Shown here: positions 37,258-55,251 of the stretch, in pieces
How positions within the stretch are numbered: position 1 is the stretch's first letter
Layout: each line of letters opens with the position of its first letter
NCBI RefSeq assembly: GCF_009914755.1
Contig: NC_060932.1
Strand: one strand, 5' to 3'
DNA length: 64,000 nucleotides
DNA from: the human T2T-CHM13v2.0 reference genome, Homo sapiens
Notes under the pieces: generated by a model
The model's database searches: none
The model's input: only the letters and a program-made list of their open reading frames with translations
What the model was told of the DNA's origin: nothing
Translations under genes and position numbers: made by a program

Positions 37258-37410
37258 GGTGGTTGTGATGATGGTGATGATAATGATGGTGACAGTAGTG
37301 CTGATGGTGATAATGGTGGTGATGGTTGCGACGGTGATAGTGGTAATGATGGTGATGATGGTGATGATGGTGGTGATAATGATGATGATGGTGGTGATGG
37401 TGATGGTGCT
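37258..37410. repeat. (GAT/GGT)n low-complexity tract
   Basis: Directly visible. Confidence 0.9.
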
Positions 37411-37548
37411 GGAGAGTGATTTTGGGTGCTGGTGATGCCCAAGACAGCAGCCACCACAATATCTGTTGTAATGATGGTGCTTATAGGCTTGGAGATTATT
37501 ATCTTGCCAGCTTACTCTGTTCCTCACTCATAAACTGGGAGCGTCTGG

Positions 37549-37868
37549 AGGATGGATGGGTGGATAGATGGAAGGATGGATGGGTGGAAGGATGGATGGG
37601 TGGATAGATGGAAGGATGGATGGGTGGAAGGGTGGATGGGTGGATAGATGGATAGATGGATGGATGAATGGATGGATGAATGGGGGATGGATGGATAGTG
37701 ATGAATGGATGGATAGATGGACATGTGGATGGATGAATGGGTAGATGAATGGATGGGTGGATGAGTGGGTGGATGGATGGGGGATGGATGGATGGTGGAT
37801 GGATGAATGGTGGATGGATGGATGGTGGATGGATGGGGGATGGATGGGGGATGGATGGGTAGATGGAA
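37549..37868. repeat. (GGAT)n tetranucleotide array
   Basis: Directly visible. Confidence 0.93.
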
Positions 37869-38634
37869 GAAAGGATACATAAGGACAATGACTACAGTCT
37901 CTGAGTCACCTGGAGGTGGAGCAGACAGGAGTGGCAGCCACCCAGGCGCTGTGCGTCTCGTCAGCACCCACACTCCTGAGATGTGGAGGAAGCTCCTTCG
38001 CACCTAACTCCTATCTGCTCATTCCCCTTCCTGTCGCCGACACAAACAATGCCAGAAGGGGAAGGAAGCCTAAGAAGGTTCCCCCACCCCCTGCACCAAG
38101 TGGCTTTGTCTCTAGGCAGGCCAGAGGCTCTTTCTGGCAAGGCCCTTCACAACCACCTCTCTCACCCCACTTCCCTGGCCCCAATCCAGCAGTAATAGAG
38201 CTTGCTGTCAGGAAGTCCTTCCGTGAGTCGAACCTGCATGCCTTAGGCTGCAACGTGAGGGCCCCTGTTCCCCTCAGCAGACTCTGCTCTTCGGTTCTCC
38301 CTCTTCCCCTTCTCCATCCTGACTGACCACCCCCACCACCGACCACCACCACTGTCTGGGCTGCATCATGACCATTTAGTGGGGCCATCCTCTAACCTCT
38401 CTTGGTCTCATTCGGCATGAAGGCCTGACCCTCCCGCTGGGCCCACCCACCTCCCCAGGCCCTGCTTCCCAGAGGGCTCAACTCCAGAGGAGCAATTGCA
38501 TAGTGTGCGTCCTACTCCAGAATTTATTCCAAAACCTTCCATTAGCCAGGAGTTCCCTTTTCAGCCCTGCTGCCCTGACCCCCAGCTCCCTGTGATCTGT
38601 CCTGAGACTGGAAGCAGGGGAGGCATCTGCGTGG

Positions 38635-38765
38635 GGGTGCAGGGCCTGGAGAGGCCTCGGCCTGGAGCGGGAGTGCAGGGCCTGGAGGGGGAGGGCAGGG
38701 CCTGGAGGGGGAGTGCAGGGCCTGGAGAGGCCTGGGCCTGTGTCTGGAGTGCAGGGCCTGGAGGG
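38635..38765. repeat. Short minisatellite (gtgcagggcctggag, about 5 copies)
   Basis: Directly visible. Confidence 0.75.
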
Positions 38766-39390
38766 CCCCTGGCAGGGGGTTCTGAAGTGCCCTGAGGTGA
38801 CAGAGCAGCTGGTATCTCACCCAGGCACTGCCCGCACCCCTCCAGCTGCTCACCGCCTGGGAGGTGAGCAGGATCAGGAGGGACCAGGCAGCCTCTTCTG
38901 ACCGGCGCCGTCTCCCCAGCCCTGCTAGAGCCCCACAAGCTTCTTGGCTCTGAGGCATTGTCCTGGGGAGGGCCGAGCACCTCCCTGGAGGCCCAGACCT
39001 GGGAGTGCATAAGTGGGAGGGGCCAGTGGGCTTCCACCACAGCCCTGCTCTGCAGCCTGCTCCCTGTGGCCCCGGGGGGCTCTCAGACCCCTGCAGTGAT
39101 AGTACAGTCCCCTCTGAAGACCCCAAGCAGCACACCTCTGCCCACCCGGTATCCTGTGTCTCTGGCCGGCTCAGCTCAGAGCAGCCCCTGAAGGGACCGG
39201 CAGACAGGTGAGACTCCTCCCAGGGTGCCCGGCCACCCAGGCCCACTCCTGGCCCTGCCTCAGACCCTCCCCGTCTGGGCCTCAGTTTCCCCACAGGTGC
39301 CAGCTGAGAGCCCTTCCAGGGCCAGCAGTCTGTGACTTGGCGCTTCTCAAGGTGTCGGAAGCAGCGGGCTCTGGAGTATCTTGTCAGGTC

Positions 39391-39525
39391 CTAAAAATAA
39401 TCGGGAGGGAGGAACATCTCCGAATAGCTGGTGAACGTGCGAGCCGCCCACCCCACGCACAGCGGAAACTCCTCCAAATAAGGCCTTGGCAGAACCGGAA
39501 GCCTGAACCATCACCACGCACGTCA
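39391..39525. promoter_or_regulatory. Candidate enhancer: MEF2 + EGR-like + ETS + CArG + ETS + half-CRE cluster
   Basis: CTAAAAATAA 39391, CCCCACGCA 39451, CGGAA 39463, CCAAATAAGG 39474, ACCGGAAG 39494, CACGTCA 39519. Confidence 0.55.
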
Positions 39526-41639
39526 GCTGTGTTCCAGAACCTTCCCTCCCAGGGCCACAGGGTCTCCCCCAGAGGGCCGGCGGCCGGATCAGAGGCCTGG
39601 GCAGCCTGGCTCATTCTAGACACCCGGAGCCCACTGAGAGATGGCAGCCCTTCCCATTAGAGTCCTGAAATTTATAATTACGGAATCAAAGCATTTCCTA
39701 GCCTAGAAACTTGTATTTAAACGTACGGAATCTTAGAATAATCAAATTCAGACCCTTCCCCCAAGTCGCAGAGGACATTGGCTCCAAAGGGCAGTGCCCC
39801 TGCCTGGCTCCCGGGAGAAGCAGGACCCCACCTGGGGCTGGGGGGCAGCATGGTAGCCTCCAGACCAGCCTCTGGAGAAATGGGGGATGGCTCCCAGCTG
39901 TCCTAGGAAGGCAGAGGAGGTGTCGCTGGGCTCAGTATGGCTCTCTGGGAACACCATATGGACCCTGCCCAGGAAGGGGAGGTGGGGGGAGGAAGGAGGC
40001 AACACCCCCATCAGCAACCTCCTCGGCCTCTCCCAGGGGTTCCGGGTTGGGCGTGGCCCCTCCTGCCTTGCAGTGTGCACAGGGGTGGGGTGCTCCTTCT
40101 CTTCCCACCCCCCACCTCTCCTCCGTGTCCTTCCTGATCTTTCCCTGACCCTGCTAAGCTGAGGGACCCCCTGCCCCTAGAGGGGAAGCTTCTCATGGAC
40201 TTTGCCCAGTTCCTCCACCGGGCCACGCTTAACCTCCCAGAAGGACAAGGGTGTGCCTTGGGAACCAGGGCAGGGAAGAGGAGGGAGGGGACAGGTCTGG
40301 AGGGGCTGCTTTATTGGAGGAGAGGGATGGGCACAGTCTGGTGACAGGACCTTGAGGGTAGGCAGGGAGGGTGCAGGGCAAGGACTGGACCTCCCACTCT
40401 TGATGGCTTCCCGGAAGAGGGGACCTGGCTGAGCCTGGAGGTGGTGGAGGCGGGTGGTAGTCGGCACCCATGTAGGGCCAGCCTTGAAGGATGCTGATGT
40501 CACCAGTGGCCGCTGAGCCAAGGCTGGTGGCTTGGGCGGCATGGGCCAGGGCTTGTACCCCTTGGAGGTTTAGGAAGTTCAGGCTCTCAGCCAGAGCCCG
40601 CCCCCTGCTGGCTTGGAGAGAAGGGCTCAGCGCTCAGGCCCCACCCCGGGGCTGCTGTGGGGGATTTCTTTCTGGGCCAACCCCAGGTCACTAACAGGTC
40701 ACTAAGATGTGATGTGGCCAGGGTCACACAGCTGGGGCCTGGACCACTGCTTGGCCAACCCTAGAAGAGTCCCAGTCCGCGCCCCCACCCAACTGTTGCC
40801 ATCCTCCAGGCAGTCTGTGCCTGTAGCTGCCAGAAGCACTCCTGGCCCCAAACCTCAGTGGTGCCTCCCTCTTCACTGTCCTGGCCTCGCCTCACCCCTG
40901 CCTCTGAGTCTCTCCAAAGCCACGTGCCTTATAGCAGGCTTTGGCGGGGGGCAGGCAGTTTCCTGCAGTACAGGGGTTCCCCCGAACCTGGTATGCACAC
41001 CAGGTATGCTCAGAGGAGGCTCTTATCAGCATCTGACAGCTGAGAAGTCTGAGAGGGGCCCTGGGGAAAGAGGCCACAGAGTGTTCTGGGAAGGGGCCAC
41101 CTGCCCCTGCCTCCAGGTGCGTACCTGCAATGCACCAGGAACAGGCAGCCATTGGAGGAGAGGTGGGCAGATTAAGCCGAGCAGGCCTGGCAAGGAGAGG
41201 TGAGGTGGAGGCCAGGCCATGGGTCCAGGCTGAGGAACAGCAGTCATGTGCAGAGGGCAGTGGCTGTTCACATCTCACGGGTCCTGTTGGTCTCCGTGGC
41301 CCACGGGTCTCTATGCAACACCTCCCAGGTGTGTGCCAGGCTTGCAGAGATGATGCTGGTGGCTCAAGGACTCCTAGTAGAAGCTCCCAGAGAAGGGACC
41401 TCAGTGTAGACCTCAGTGCAGACCAGAGAAAGCACAGAATGACGTGTGCCCTTACCCATGGCACTGATGACGGGGATGAGGGACAGTGATGCAGGCCTTT
41501 GTAACCACCACCCAGCACAGAAGAGGAAACTGAGGCACAGAGAGAGTAGGTGACTTGCCCAGTCACAGAGCTAAACCAGTGGTGGGATTCGAGCCCAGGC
41601 ATCCAGGCTGTCGTGGTGGTGTACTTAGGCGTCATCATC

Positions 41640-43680: not shown

Positions 43681-44150
43681 TGATGCAGGGCAGGTGAGCC
43701 CCTAAAAGTGGGGCTTAGCCTGGAGGGTTCTTGGCTTTGTTCAACAAAAAATTTGAAGGCGAGCCAGTGGTGTTCGAAGCACCTTTGATTGAAGTGGTGT
43801 GGGCAGCCGCAGCAGAGGGACTGCTCCTTGCAGAGCAGGGCTACCCCATAGGCAGTGAGCCCAGGGAAGCAGCTCAGAGGCACTTCCGCAGTCATAGTTA
43901 TACCCACTTTTAATCGTATGCAAATTAAGGGGCAGATTATGCAGCAATTTCAAGAAAAAGAGTGGTAAATTCCACTGCCATGGAAAGGGGTACTAACTTC
44001 TGGTGTTGCCATGGCAATGGTAAACCAACAGGCACACTGGTGGGCATGTATTCTGGAAAGGTCTTTCTACCCTGCCCCATTTTAGCTAGTCCTCAATTCA
44101 GTCCTGTGTCTGAGCCCCACCTCCAGAGTTGAGTCCTGCTTCCTACCTCA
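43681..44150 (-). mobile_element. ERV1 solo LTR (MER66-like)
   Basis: TG...CA termini, 470 bp, near-TSD ttgc/ttgt; reverse strand starts TGAGGTAGGAAGCAGGACTCAACTC. Confidence 0.65.
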
Positions 44151-44151
44151 T

Positions 44152-44940
44152 TGTGATATTGTGAAATATATATTTAATCTTCACCCCTATTTCCTGACAT
44201 ACAGCTCCTGAAACTCTTGGAATCTTCAGAGTGACAAGTGCTTCTTTTGTATGTTAATGAGATGACTGATGTCCCTGAAACAGCTTCAAGATGGGGCTGG
44301 TCACTGGAAAGACCAAGGCAGCATCAGAGGGTTGGGACTTTCAGCCCCACCTCCCACCTCTGGGCAGGGGAGAGAGGCTGAAGGTTGATCACCAATGGCT
44401 AATGATGTAATCAATCATGCATTCCTAATAAAGCTTCCATAAAACCCCAAAAGGACACAGTTTGGGGAGCCCCCAGATAGCTGAACACACGCAGGTGCCT
44501 GGAGGTGGTGCTGGGAGGGCCTGGGAGCTCCGCGCCCCTCCCCGTGCCTGCCCACACGTCTCCCCCACCTGCTGTGCATCCGCACCTTCGTCACAGCCTG
44601 TGTCATAAATGGGTAGACGCGGCTCAGTGTGTCCCTGAGTTCTGTGAGCCGCTCCAGCAAGTCATCAGACCCAAGGAGAGGGTCGTGGGAACCCTGATTC
44701 CCACGGTGCTAGTCAGAAGCACTAGCATTGGAAGTGGGGTCGTTGTGTGGGACTGAGCCCTCGACTTGCGGGATCTGACGCGACCTCGAGATGGATGGCG
44801 TCGGGATTGAATTGAGGATACCCAGCAGTGTCCACTGCAGTCGCTCAGTGTGTGGGGAAGCGACCCCGTGGCTGGTCACACAAGTATCTTGTGCTGTATT
44901 TGAGTATGTGAGAGGGAGGAAGAGAAGCACTTCAGTTCGG
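44152..44940 (+). mobile_element. MER21-family LTR
   Basis: Begins TGTGATATTGTGAAATATATATTT; contains gggttgggactttcagccccacc and aatcaatcatgc motifs. Confidence 0.75.
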
Positions 44941-45447
44941 ATTTCTTGTCTCCTTTAACTTTCAATTATTTTGAATCTGCTGGACCTGTCAAGAATTGGA
45001 AAGAAGTATTGAAATTTCCCACTATGATAGTAGATTGTTTCTTTTTTCTTTGTAATTCTACCAAATTTTGCTTAGTATGTTTTGAGGAATATGAGTTCAG
45101 AATTATTATATGTTCCTGGAGATTTGAATTTTTGTCATTTTGAAGTAACCATCTCTCTATATAATAATGTTTTTTTCTTTTGGCTTAAAGTCTATCTCAT
45201 TTGATATTAATATAAATACCCTCATCGTCCTTTGTTAAATAACATTTTTGTGGGTTTATTCTCAAATTTTAGGTATGTCTCATGTAAGGGCATAGAACTG
45301 GACTTTTAAAATCCAATCAGAGAATCTGGCTTTTAATTTTTTATTCCTATTTTTGGGTGATGGTTGCTGTATTTGGATCTGGTACTCTGTCTTAGTGCCG
45401 CATTAATGTCTTGTTTTTACTCTAATTTAAAAAAAATCTCAATTCTC

Positions 45448-45960: not shown

Positions 45961-47166
45961 TAAAGTATTGATTTTTAATGCAGTTTTACCTCTTATTCAT
46001 ATGGAAATCTTACAGATTCTTTCTATTCCTTTTCAGCTTACCTTTGAAATTATAACCATTATTTAACTGGTTCTAAAATGCATCAGTCTATGAACTCTCT
46101 TTCAAACGGTACAAGGACCTCAGAAGACTTTACTCATTCTCGTTGGGCTTCCATGGTAGCTTTGTCTATCATTTGAGCTCTGTATGTACAACGCTATGAA
46201 TGAGACAGGATTATCCTCATCAGTAGACAGCCCTGGTTATATGGACTTATATGTTTAGCCATTCCTTTGTCACCATTCCTTCTAAGATGTCATGCTCTCC
46301 TTCTTCCCGGAGCACAGGCTTTCCAAGTCCTGCTGGCAAACACCTGTTGACTGTAACTCTGTTGTCCGTGTGGAGAAGGCCAAATTAATCCCACTCATTG
46401 CCTGGCATCATGCTGGCCCATGGGAAGCCCCGTTCTTGCTTATTTATGCTCTTGAATCTCCATAATCCGCCCCCCAACCGATAAGCAGCTACTCTAATTT
46501 AGTTAATATGTCTTTTTTTTTTTCAAGTGTTCTTTTTATTTGATAATAATTTTAGGCAACAGAAAGTTGCAAAGATTGTATAGAAAGCACTGCTCTACCA
46601 CCTACAAGTTTCCCCCGTCATTAACATCTTATATAACCATGGCACAATTATCAAAGTGTCTATTTATTTAAACTATATTGTTATAGATCTCAATCTGTTT
46701 TTAACTTTTTTCCATAAGCACTTTTTTTAAAAAGATCCATCTGGGTTGCTATGTGTGCATCTTGTCTGTTCTTTTTCATTTTTTTCTTGACGTGGTTTAT
46801 TTTAATATAAAATACAGCCAAACATATACCACAGATGAGACGGAGCCATATGTAATGACATTCTCTGTGCATGGCGAGTAATATCGGTGTGCGCACTTGA
46901 ATTTTGCATTTTTGGTTTAACTTGGAGGTACAACTTAAATATACTAAGATTCGTCCATTTTAAGTGTTGGATGGGTTAGGCCGTATGTAAACACTCAGCC
47001 ACTGCCACGAACAGACGGTGCACAACTCTGTCAGACCCATGCAACTGTCACCATGAGTGGGACAGTGCCACCAGCCCCCAGCATCCCCTCAGGAGGTCCC
47101 TTTCTAGTAAAATCCTTTCCCCATCCTCCCCCCGGGGCAGCCACTGCTCTATGCTTCGTCCCTGTA

Positions 47167-50831
<3,665 letters not shown>

Positions 50832-52589: not shown

Positions 52590-53864
52590 AAGAAGCCCAC
52601 GATATGCAAGAGAAGCCCATGATATGCAGGAGAAGCCCACGACACGCAGGAGAAGCCGATGACACACAGGAGAAGCCCACGATATGCAGGAGAAGCCCAC
52701 GACATGCAGAAGCCCACCACACACAGGAGAAGCCCACAATACGCAGGAGAAGCCCACCACACACAGGAGAAGCCCACGACATGCAGGAGAAGCCGACAAC
52801 ATGCAGGAGAAGCCCATGATATGCAGGAGAAGCCCACGATATGCAGAAGCCCACCACACACACAGGAGAAGCCCACGATACGCAGGAGAAGCCGACGACA
52901 TGCAGGAGAGGCCCATGATATGCAGGAGAGGCCCACGATATGCAGGAGAAGCCGACGACACACAGGAGAAGCCAACGACACGCAGGAGAAACCAACGACA
53001 CGCAGGAGAAGCCCATGATATGCAGGAGAAGCCCACGATATGCAGAAGCCCACCACACACACAGGAGAAGCCCATGATACGCAGGAGAAGCCGACGACAT
53101 GCAGGAGAGGCCCATGATATGCAGGAGAAGCCCACGATACGCAGGAGAAGCCCATGATGCGCAGGAGAAGCCCACAACACGCAGGAGAAGCTGATGACAT
53201 GCAGGAGAGGCCCACGATATGCAGGAGAAGCCCATGATATGCAGGAGAGGCCCAAGATATGCAGGAGAAGCCGACGACATGCAGGAGAAGCCCAAGATAC
53301 GCAGGAGAAGCCCACGACACGCAGGAGAAGCCCATGATACACAGGAGAAGCCGACGACACGCAGGAGAAGCCGACGACACGCAGGAGAAACCCACGACAC
53401 GCAGGAGAAGCCAACGACACGCAGGAGAAGCCCATGATATGCAGGAGAAGCCGACGACACGCAGGAGAAGCCCACGACATGCAGGAGAGGCCCATGATAT
53501 GCAGGAGAAGCCCACGACATGCAGGAGAAGCTGACGACATGCAGGAGAAGCCCACGACAGGCAGGAGAGGCCCACGATATGCAGGAGAAGCCGATGACAT
53601 GCAGGAGAAGCCCACGATATGCAGGAGAAGCCCATGATACGCAGGAGAAGCCCACAATACACAGGAGAAGCCAATGACATGCAGGAGAAGCCGACGACAC
53701 GCAGGAGAAACCGACGACATGCAGGAGAAGCCCACGATATGCAGGAGAAGCCGACGACACGCAGGAGAGGCCCATGACACGCAGGAGAAGCCCACGACAT
53801 GCAGGAGAAGCCCACGATACGCAGGAGAAGCCCATGATACACAGGAGAAGCCCACGATACGCAG
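52590..53864. repeat. 20-bp VNTR (gcaggagaagcccacgatat and variants), about 60 copies
   Basis: Directly visible; from 53101 the period is exactly 20 nt. Confidence 0.97.
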
Positions 53865-55251
53865 CAGCAACGTGAGCAGGTGAGAAGCCACCATGAGCAA
53901 GAGACAGAAAGCACAGCCAACGGCAAGGCCAGACCCTGAGAATGTCCCAGAGGTGAGCCATGCAGAGGAGATGACAAGGTGTTTTTTAAATGGTTACATT
54001 TGTGGGAAACAGGAACTCCTAAGAAGAAGGCAAGACACTGCAGAGAAGGAACAGGCGCACCTGGAACAGAGTGCAGGAGACAAAGCGAAGACCATCGCTG
54101 TTGTGACAAAGTCGGCGGATGTTTTAACAGCCAATGAGGGATAGAGAAAGAATGAACTGGGAGATAAATCAATGCACCATCGAGACATAAAAGAGACAGA
54201 AAATGTGAAACCGGGGTTAAGACACATGGACCGGAATGGGGTGAGAAGGTCACTCACAGCAAACATGTGAGATCTTTGTGCCCCTCATGTGCTTTTTGTT
54301 TTTTGGCTTTTTTTACCTCTCCAAGTTCAGCTGTTTTTCCTGGTGTGTGAAAATGGATGTGAGCCCCCTGAATACCTTCCTCTGCTGGTGGGTCCTGGGG
54401 TGTGGTCAGAAGACAGCAGTGAGACGCACCGAAGGAGGGAGCCCCTCTGCTCCGTGGGCTGTAGGATCTCCAGGGCCAGGCTCCTGCAGGGAGGCCACTG
54501 CCCCAGCGCTCAGCTCCTGTGGAGCATGGGGCCAGCCACGGGAAGGGGCAGCTGTGCCCGAACCCCCGGGGCGGTTTGGTAAGGGAGTATCACCCGTGCG
54601 ACACCTCCCTGTGAGCAACTTCTCCTGCATCTCAGAGGGCTCGTGTCCAGCAGTCTCTGCACCCACTGGCTTCTCTGCTGCAGGAGCGAGCTGCCCAGGA
54701 GGGGAGGTCTGCTGTGAGCACTTGCCTCAGCCCAGGGAGGGGCTCTTCCGCCTTACATGGCAGGACACCCGCTAGTGTTCTATAGACGTGTCATTCCTGC
54801 CGCTGCTGCATTCTTCAGAGCTCTCTGTACTTCTTACTAGCCAGCCCCTTCTAACTCCCATTCCCCGTGGCACTGAATCATTCTTCATATTACACTTCCC
54901 TGCTCAAACTGCTGTGTGGTGCCCATCTCAGGAACAGGCTCCGAGGGATACAGAATACTCAAGTCCTGATTGTGCTCTAGCGGTCAAGTGCAGCAGCTCT
55001 TGGGCTCCCAAGGTCAATGTTTCCGCTGTCACTGTCACCAGCCAGGGGTGACAGCCTGAGGACAGACGGCACCATGGCATGCAGTGGGCAACCAGCATCC
55101 CATTCCCATGTCAGGGAGCTCGGCGCCACACTCACATCATAAGGCACAGCCCCTCCCAGCCCCGAGCCTGTCACTGCTGATCTATCTCCTGGACACCTCC
55201 CAGTACCAATACAATTCCACAGAGCAAGGAGGAAGTTCTCAACAAGATCCC

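What the first reader, a model, noticed from the sequence alone, without database searches (positions are those of the whole stretch)
39391..39525. SARE-like activity-responsive enhancer candidate 5 kb past ADGRB1
Seen within 135 bp of CpG-retaining unique sequence: consensus MEF2 CTAAAAATAA, EGR-like CCCCACGCA, consensus CArG CCAAATAAGG flanked by ETS cores (CGGAA 39463, ACCGGAAG 39494) and a half-CRE (CACGTCA). Known: the Arc synaptic-activity-responsive element combines CREB, MEF2 and SRF/TCF sites, and ARC lies beyond this pseudogene at 8q24.3. Inference: an additional immediate-early enhancer for ARC and/or ADGRB1.
Basis: partly seen in the sequence, partly recalled or inferred. Interest (0 to 1): 0.7.

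Follow-up and report, generated by a model that had tools for sequence, protein, structure and literature searches.

The report
Predicted SARE-like enhancer, already in print
A 135-base stretch just past the ADGRB1 gene really does carry textbook binding sites for the factors that switch on activity-induced brain genes, but a 2013 genome screen already listed this same spot as a predicted enhancer, and nobody has yet tested whether it works.

Summary
The stretch is single copy in the genome. Its CpG o/e is 0.95 against a window median of 0.26. It is the only place in the 64 kb where CArG and MEF2 consensus sites lie within 135 bp. In 1000 composition-matched simulations, SRF+MEF2+half-CRE clustered in 1 and the cluster with CCGGAAG added in 0. 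The element is not new. Table S1 of Rodriguez-Tornos et al. 2013 (PMC3561385) lists cluster 774, 146 bp, 14 TFBS, "BAI1(5.1kb)<->ARC(60.8kb)", as a human-mouse conserved CREB/MEF2/SRF cluster. The paper did not reporter-test it. It shares no sequence with the real ARC SARE beyond the motifs. It lies about 64.5 kb from the ARC start site, on the opposite side from the SARE. Binding, inducibility and target gene could not be tested here. Interest is modest.

The parts
39391..39400 (+). MEF2 consensus site CTAAAAATAA (fits YTAW4TAR)
   Evidence: It is 1 of only 4 YTAW4TAR matches in the 64 kb.
39444..39459 (-). GC box CCGCCC with two overlapping EGR-like sites (CGCCCACCC, 8 of 9; CCCACGC core)
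   Evidence: There is no full GCGKGGGCG match here.
39462..39469 (+). Upstream ETS core GCGGAAAC, 6 bp 5' of the CArG; a weaker ETS site whose sequence also fits a kappaB-like consensus (recalled, not tested)
39474..39483 (+). Consensus CArG box CCAAATAAGG (SRF site)
   Evidence: It is 1 of 3 CCW6GG matches in the window.
39494..39501 (+). Strong ETS/TCF site ACCGGAAG, 11 bp 3' of the CArG (SRE-type ternary-complex layout)
   Evidence: The genome holds only 51 places with CCGGAAG 5-20 nt from a CArG in this orientation.
39519..39525 (+). Half-CRE CACGTCA (CGTCA core)
   Evidence: This is a common motif, with 40 matches in the window, so it carries little weight alone.
39524..39529 (.). E-box CAGCTG abutting the half-CRE
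   Evidence: A second CAGCTG lies at 39301-39306.
39267..39620 (.). CpG-retaining patch that encloses the motif cluster
   Evidence: It is one of 4 such patches in the intergenic 34.3-56.8 kb. One of the others, 44529-44968, lies inside a RefSeq-annotated enhancer.
39670..39739 (+). Adjacent AT-rich block with a 25-nt direct repeat (each copy holds ACGGAATC), a TAATTA site and a TATTTAA site; whether it belongs to the module is inferred only
   Evidence: (family D7).

Best explanation
This is a single-copy, conserved composite cis-regulatory module of the SARE / serum-response-element type. An SRF dimer would sit on the consensus CArG box. ETS-family ternary complex factors (ELK1/ELK4 type) would sit on the flanking ETS sites, chiefly ACCGGAAG 11 bp downstream. 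MEF2 would bind a consensus site 73 bp upstream, and a CREB-family factor would bind a half-CRE 37 bp downstream. EGR/SP-type and E-box sites lie in between and at the edge. By analogy with the ARC SARE, Ca2+/MAPK signalling would activate these pre-bound factors, recruit CBP/p300 and raise transcription of a nearby promoter. What is shown: the motifs, their rarity for the local composition, the single-copy status, the CpG retention, and a prior published listing as a human-mouse conserved CREB/MEF2/SRF cluster. What is inferred: factor occupancy, inducibility, tissue and target. The target could be ADGRB1, whose 3' end is 5.1 kb away, or ARC, whose TSS is about 64.5 kb away.
For: All motifs are present. 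It is the only SRF+MEF2 co-occurrence within 135 bp in the window. Simulations gave the 3-class cluster in 1 of 1000 runs and the 4-class cluster in 0 of 1000. The ETS-CArG-MEF2 composite at this spacing has 1 genome match, itself, and 0 in the control; because the pattern was derived from the site, this shows only that it has no twin. The CArG + CCGGAAG layout occurs 51 times in 3.1 Gb, and a second instance is the ARC proximal SRE 65.6 kb away. CpG o/e is 0.95 against a median of 0.26 and flanks near 0.2. The site is one of 4 intergenic CpG-retaining patches, and another of them coincides with a RefSeq enhancer. PMC3561385 Table S1 cluster 774, 'BAI1(5.1kb)<->ARC(60.8kb)', 146 bp, 14 TFBS, came from a SynoR human-mouse screen. 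In the 90 rows read (part 8 of 9), only 4 have 14 or more TFBS. No coding or RNA-gene explanation was found.
Against: No binding, chromatin or reporter data exist for this element in anything I could search, and the 2013 paper reporter-tested only the Cux1 and Cux2 clusters. Conservation rests on that paper's pipeline alone, because no non-human vertebrate sequence was available here. The CArG+MEF2 pair is not enriched genome-wide: 3846 matches at 60-90 nt against 4068 for the reversed control. The CArG+CCGGAAG layout is only modestly above a CpG-matched control, 28 against 18 on chromosomes 1-8. The sites span 135 bp, against about 49 bp in the true SARE. There is no sequence homology to the SARE. 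The authors of the 2013 list expect false positives among its 887 clusters.
Confidence: 0.45

Rival explanations
1. The cluster is a non-functional coincidence: consensus words that happen to fall together in GC-rich subtelomeric DNA, with CpG retention and alignability that do not reflect regulatory use.
For: At about 1 per 1000 windows of 64 kb, tens of such 3-class clusters are expected by chance in 3.1 Gb. The CArG+MEF2 pair shows no genome-wide enrichment. The half-CRE is frequent, with 40 in the window. The finding was selected post hoc by a reader hunting for motif combinations. The 2013 authors acknowledge false positives in their list.
Against: An independent conservation-filtered screen picked the same spot. 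CpG o/e of 0.95 is a sharp local peak in flanks near 0.2. The 4-class cluster appeared in 0 of 1000 simulations. The location is beside a prime SRF/MEF2/CREB target gene.
Confidence: 0.27
2. It is a real SRF/MEF2 enhancer, but of the muscle or other non-neuronal type (CArG + MEF2 + CAGCTG E-box), or a general growth-factor SRE, acting on ADGRB1 rather than serving as a synaptic-activity element for ARC.
For: CAGCTG E-boxes lie at 39301 and 39524 beside MEF2 and CArG consensus sites; that this trio typifies myogenic enhancers is recalled, not tested. ADGRB1 is the nearest gene, at 5.1 kb. The listing returned skeletal-muscle and myoblast-fusion papers (PMC8500716, PMC11234433) that contain the term BAI1; I saw only the search listing.
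Against: Flanking high-affinity ETS sites and a half-CRE are features of TCF-type immediate-early SREs rather than MRTF-type muscle CArG elements (established knowledge, not tested here). No data on tissue activity were available.
Confidence: 0.13
3. It is the promoter or 5' regulatory region of an unannotated, possibly inducible, non-coding transcript. The ETS, SRF and CRE sites would act as proximal promoter elements, with TATA-like words 150-200 bp downstream.
For: ACCGGAAG is a typical promoter-proximal ETS word (recalled). The site sits in a CpG-retaining patch. ATTTATA lies at 39670 and TATTTAA at 39714, downstream of the cluster.
Against: The supplied RefSeq table has no gene or transcript here. 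The CpG patch is small (354 bp, maximum o/e 0.82) and not a full CpG island. No Rfam family matches at the site. The TATA-like words are far from the CRE.
Confidence: 0.08

Closest known systems
SynoR 'SARE cluster' 774 of Rodriguez-Tornos et al. 2013 (PLoS One 8:e53848, PMC3561385, Table S1): hg18 chr8:143628446-143628591
   Same: It is the same element. The row reads 146 bp, intergenic, BAI1(5.1kb)<->ARC(60.8kb). The window distances are 5.08 kb and 61.07 kb, and the window has only one place with SRF+MEF2 within 135 bp. The logic is also the same: CREB+MEF2+SRF matrices with at most 125 bp between neighbours, filtered for human-mouse conservation.
   Different: The paper gives one row in a supplementary table with no site-by-site anatomy and no test. 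It counts Arc among its 'SARE-containing genes' and measured only Arc mRNA induction. The hg18 sequence itself was not available, so identity rests on distances, length and uniqueness.
ARC synaptic activity-responsive element (SARE; Kawashima et al. 2009, cited through PMC3561385 and PMC13142304; the original paper is not held)
   Same: Both combine a consensus CArG, an adjacent CCGGAAG ETS/TCF site, a MEF2-type site and only a half-CRE. Both lie in the same 8q24.3 neighbourhood.
   Different: The human SARE sits 7.6 kb upstream of the ARC TSS (L002 7654-7702, which is window position about 111,654-111,702), 72 kb from the candidate and on the other side of the gene. Its sites span about 49 bp against 135 bp, and their order and orientation differ. 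Its MEF2 site has 2 mismatches to consensus, whereas the candidate's is perfect. There is no sequence homology. The SARE is experimentally proven; this element is not.
ARC proximal SRE (about 1.06 kb upstream of the ARC TSS; L002 1081-1106)
   Same: The layout and chromosomal orientation are the same: CArG, then 9 nt (11 nt in the candidate), then CCGGAAG. Both are among only 51 such places in the genome.
   Different: No MEF2 consensus lies nearby. It is promoter-proximal. Its function is known to me only from recall (Waltereit et al. 2001, named's text).
[quoted passage not shown] 2020, as described in PMC9106336)
   Same: It shows that ARC does use enhancers on its 3' side.
   Different: It is about 15 kb away, not about 64.5 kb. 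The described Fos and Arc loops are under 40 kb.

Membership tests
SARE-type element (CREB + MEF2 + SRF/TCF composite enhancer) | Binding-site motifs for CREB, MEF2 and SRF clustered within about 100 bp (the SynoR criterion is at most 125 bp between neighbours) | tested here: met
   The MEF2-to-CArG gap is 73 bp and the CArG-to-CRE-half gap is 37 bp, for a total span of 135 bp. The CRE is only a half-site, as in the real SARE.
SARE-type element (CREB + MEF2 + SRF/TCF composite enhancer) | TCF/ETS site next to the CArG box | tested here: met
   CGGAA lies 6 bp 5' of the CArG and ACCGGAAG lies 11 bp 3' of it. The layout is rare, with 51 places in the genome.
SARE-type element (CREB + MEF2 + SRF/TCF composite enhancer) | Conservation across mammals | not testable with these tools
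   No non-human vertebrate sequence is held. The published SynoR human-mouse screen lists the locus. CpG retention is indirect support.
SARE-type element (CREB + MEF2 + SRF/TCF composite enhancer) | Occupancy by CREB, MEF2 and SRF in neurons | not testable with these tools
   No ChIP data are available, and no paper was found.
SARE-type element (CREB + MEF2 + SRF/TCF composite enhancer) | Sufficient for rapid activity-dependent transcription in a reporter, and dependent on the three sites | not testable with these tools
   The 2013 paper reporter-tested only the Cux1 and Cux2 clusters.
The ARC SARE itself (orthology or paralogy) | Sequence homology to the SARE, and a position about 7 kb upstream of ARC | tested here: not met
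   The local alignment score is no better than shuffles: 213 of 300 and 131 of 300 shuffles reach it. The position is 72 kb away, on the 3' side.
Serum response element (SRF-TCF ternary complex element) | Consensus CC(A/T)6GG with a GGAA-core ETS site within a short distance | tested here: met
Serum response element (SRF-TCF ternary complex element) | MAPK- or serum-inducible SRF/ELK binding and activity | not testable with these tools
   No experimental data were available.
CpG-island promoter | At least 200-500 bp with GC above 0.5-0.55 and CpG o/e above 0.6, plus a transcription start | tested here: inconclusive
   The patch 39267-39620 passes o/e of at least 0.6 in 200-bp tiles (maximum 0.82, at most 13 CpG per tile) but is short. 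The supplied table has no annotated TSS, and no transcript data were available.

The most novel reading that the evidence does not exclude
The element is a genuine second SARE in the ADGRB1-ARC interval. In that case a shared, activity-triggered SRF/TCF-MEF2-CREB enhancer would couple the synaptic adhesion receptor gene ADGRB1 (not known as an immediate-early gene) to neuronal activity, and possibly ARC as well over about 64.5 kb, so that two neighbouring synaptic genes would be co-regulated.
Probability: 0.15. Interest if true: 0.55.

Novelty: already known. Interest (0 to 1): 0.3.

Why it matters
ARC is the model gene for activity-dependent transcription, and current accounts describe a single distal enhancer at -7 kb (PMC13142304). 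At motif level this element is closer to consensus than the real SARE. A working SARE-like module here would mean either that ARC control is more distributed than thought, or that ADGRB1/BAI1, a synapse-organising receptor, is wired to the same signalling pathway. As it stands, the element is an untested prediction that has sat in a supplementary table since 2013. What this check adds is the site-by-site anatomy, the chance estimates and a clear list of tests.

Tried and rejected
1. RNA gene or repeat explanations. Rfam (E up to 1, 36-43 kb) gave only a weak mir-1224-like hit at 39974-40123 and a MIAT-like hit at 40592-41065, neither at the site. There were no tRNAs and no tandem repeat at the site. 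The stretch is single copy in the genome.

2. Coding exon. Stop-to-stop frames cross the site, as expected in GC-rich DNA, but 0 of the 3 frames tested hit Pfam.

3. Paralogy with the ARC SARE or the proximal SRE. None was found. A shared 12-mer, TCGGGAGGGAGG, is low-complexity, with E of 0.24-0.61.

4. Genome-wide enrichment of the CArG+MEF2 pair. None was found: 3846 matches against 4068 in the control. I therefore dropped the pair alone as evidence.

5. CpG-matched control for CArG+CCGGAAG. It was swamped by chr9 satellite copies, with 161 hits. Only chromosomes 1-8 could be compared (28 against 18), a modest and non-decisive excess.

6. Literature on binding or function at this element. 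Searches found none. A search for coordinate numbers built from recalled assembly offsets returned only DOIs and unrelated numbers.

7. Papers not held: Kawashima 2009 and Kim 2010. The SARE definition is therefore taken second-hand from PMC3561385 and PMC13142304.

9. Independent cross-species conservation could not be tested, because the tools hold no non-human vertebrate genome.

10. The first simulation script timed out. I rewrote it in vectorised form and ran it.

Full report
Observation. Regex scans place these sites:
- a MEF2 consensus CTAAAAATAA at 39391-39400;
- a GC box CCGCCC at 39444-39449;
- two overlapping EGR-like words: CGCCCACCC at 39445-39453, which matches 8 of 9 positions of the reverse-complemented EGR consensus, and CCCCACGCA at 39451-39459;
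- an ETS core CGGAA at 39463-39467;
- a consensus CArG box CCAAATAAGG at 39474-39483;
- ACCGGAAG at 39494-39501;
- CACGTCA (half-CRE) at 39519-39525;

The 135 bp have GC 0.56 and 10 CpG, giving o/e 0.95. A 401-bp query around the site matches only itself in the 3.1-Gb assembly. Nothing at the site matches Rfam, a tRNA or a tandem repeat. Open frames across it have no Pfam match, 0 of 3 tested. The stated distances are right: 5,083 bp beyond the ADGRB1 end, 61,068 bp before the ARC 3' end, and about 64.5 kb from the ARC TSS at window position 104023.

Is it more than chance? Within the 64 kb there are only 3 CArG, 4 YTAW4TAR, 9 CCGGAAG and 40 CGTCA matches. This is the only place where a CArG and a MEF2 consensus lie within 135 bp. 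I ran 1000 simulations that keep the local dinucleotide make-up (1-kb blocks with 3-kb context). An SRF+MEF2 pair within 135 bp arose in 15, the pair plus a half-CRE in 1, and the cluster with CCGGAAG added in 0. An SRF+CCGGAAG pair within 40 bp arose in 8.

Genome-wide, the oriented layout 'CCGGAAG 5-20 nt from a CArG' occurs 51 times, 23 forward and 28 reverse. The same layout with a MEF2 consensus 60-90 nt away occurs once, at this site, with 0 in the control. That pattern was built from the site, so the result shows only that it has no twin.

Three results cut the other way:
- The CArG+MEF2 pair alone is common and not enriched: 3846 matches against 4068 for the reversed control.
- Against a CpG-matched control (the same ETS word with GGW6CC), the SRE layout is only modestly over-represented, 28 against 18 on chromosomes 1-8. 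The rest of that control was swamped by chr9 satellite.
- A rate of about 1 per 1000 windows still allows tens of chance 3-class clusters per genome.

Motif statistics therefore make the site unusual for its surroundings but cannot prove function.

Sequence-intrinsic support. CpG o/e of 0.95 is reached by only 1.1% of all 135-bp tiles in the window, against a median of 0.26, and the peak is sharp, with flanks at 0.1-0.27. Using 200-bp tiles (o/e at least 0.6 and at least 10 CpG), the intergenic stretch 34.3-56.8 kb has just four such patches: 39267-39620 (this one), 44529-44968, 47086-47332 and 52758-53951. The second lies inside a RefSeq-annotated enhancer (44123-45124 in the supplied table). 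In this interval, then, CpG retention does coincide with at least one annotated regulatory element. Retained CpGs fit either purifying selection or germline hypomethylation of a factor-bound site. This is an inference.

Prior publication. Rodriguez-Tornos et al. 2013 (PMC3561385) used SynoR to look for CREB+MEF2+SRF matrix clusters in hg18 that are conserved in mouse mm9, with at most 125 bp between neighbouring sites and any order allowed (Methods section read; Results read). Their Table S1 lists cluster 774: chr8:143628446-143628591, 146 bp, 14 TFBS, intergenic, 'BAI1(5.1kb)<->ARC(60.8kb)'. The distance from BAI1/ADGRB1, the length and the factor set match the candidate, and the window has only one SRF+MEF2 cluster. 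I therefore take it as the same element. The 0.3-kb difference in the ARC distance is within what assembly differences would give.

In the 90 rows I read (part 8 of 9; 90 of the 887 clusters), 4 have 14 or more TFBS, so this cluster is among the denser ones. The paper states that the original ARC SARE was not recovered, because it has only a half-CRE and a MEF2 site with 2 mismatches. 'ARC' occurs once in the table, in this row. Arc's inclusion among the paper's 'SARE-containing genes' therefore appears to rest on this cluster. Only the Cux1 and Cux2 clusters were tested in reporters, and the authors expect false positives.

Comparison with the real ARC elements. I fetched 10 kb upstream of ARC (L002). 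The human SARE lies at L002 7654-7702, 7.6 kb upstream of the TSS. It reads CTTCCGG, 2 nt, CCATAAAAGG, then a MEF2-like CTGAGAATAG with 2 mismatches, then TGACG. Mouse SARE guide sequences printed in PMC13142304 match the SRF/TCF and CRE parts, which confirms the assignment.

The candidate has the same parts list, and a better MEF2 site, but the parts are spread over 135 bp instead of about 49 bp and are in a different order. It shows no sequence similarity beyond the motif words. It is an analogue of the SARE, not a copy. A second SRE, 1.06 kb upstream of ARC (L002 1081-1106: CArG, 9 nt, CCGGAAG), has the same layout and chromosomal orientation as the candidate (CArG, 11 nt, CCGGAAG). These two are 65.6 kb apart among only 51 such places in the genome. 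This was noticed after the fact, but it is worth recording.

Mechanism and target. The most likely reading is a signal-responsive enhancer. SRF would sit on the CArG with an ELK-type TCF on the flanking ETS site(s), together with MEF2 and a CREB-family factor. These would be activated by Ca2+/MAPK pathways and would recruit CBP/p300, as established for the SARE. That description comes from PMC3561385 and PMC13142304; the original paper was not held.

The target is open. ADGRB1 is nearest: its 3' end is 5.1 kb away and its main promoter about 100 kb away. ARC's TSS is about 64.5 kb away. Three points argue against a major role for ARC:
- The described Arc and Fos enhancer loops are under 40 kb, and the known downstream Arc enhancer is about 15 kb from the TSS (PMC9106336, passages read).
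- CRISPRi at the -7 kb SARE alone blocked BDNF induction of Arc in cultured neurons (PMC13142304, passages read).
- That preprint describes the activity-regulated factors as binding Arc 'at a single' enhancer.

For ADGRB1, I found only that it appears in a list of genes altered by patterned firing in DRG neurons, with the direction not stated (PMC5335607, one table passage).

Rivals:
- a chance cluster without function (0.27);
- a real SRF/MEF2/E-box enhancer of muscle or general growth-factor type acting on ADGRB1 (0.13);
- the promoter of an unannotated transcript (0.08), given TATA-like words at 39670 and 39714 and the promoter-type ETS word.

None of these can be excluded without chromatin, binding or transcript data.

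Verdict. It is plausible and was reached independently by a published, conservation-filtered screen, but function, inducibility and target are unshown, and the ARC link in particular is weak. Novelty: already known as a prediction. Interest: 0.3.

Noticed in passing
L002 1081-1106 (window position about 105,081-105,106; 1.06 kb upstream of the ARC TSS): An SRE with the same layout and chromosomal orientation as the candidate (CArG CCATATAAGG, 9 nt, CCGGAAG). It and the candidate are 2 of only 51 such places in the genome and lie 65.6 kb apart.
   Followed up: partly
window 52758-53951: A 1.2-kb CpG-rich patch (200-bp CpG o/e up to 1.02, up to 18 CpG per tile) in intergenic DNA about 3 kb before MROH4P. 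The supplied table has no feature there, so it may be a CpG island or promoter.
   Followed up: no
window 44529-44968 and 47086-47332: Two further intergenic CpG-retaining patches. The first lies inside the RefSeq enhancer tiles 44123-45124; the second has no annotation in the supplied table.
   Followed up: no
window 39974-40123: A weak mir-1224-like hairpin match (28 bits against a gathering score of 105, E 0.08). It coincides with a purine-rich/pyrimidine-rich inverted repeat, 39970-39998 and 40099-40127, 79% complementary. It is probably chance.
   Followed up: no
window 37265-37867 and 38633-38767: A GTGATGATG/ATG array, an 82-copy TGGA microsatellite with extreme GC skew (up to 0.70), and a 36/20-bp GC-rich minisatellite lie just upstream of the candidate. 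Length variation in these could explain small distance differences between assemblies.
   Followed up: no
window 39670-39739: A 25-nt direct repeat (76% identical), each copy holding ACGGAATC with a retained CpG, sits in an AT-rich block with a TAATTA site directly after the motif cluster. It may be part of the same module.
   Followed up: partly
G000 contig C9, about 49-67 Mb: The control pattern CTTCCGG N5-20 GGW6CC is carried by scores of near-identical GGAAT-satellite copies on chr9, which spoils it as a genome-wide control.
   Followed up: no
window 39462-39471: The upstream 'ETS' word CGGAAACTCC also fits a Rel/NF-kappaB-type consensus as I recall it. This was not tested against any matrix.
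   Followed up: no
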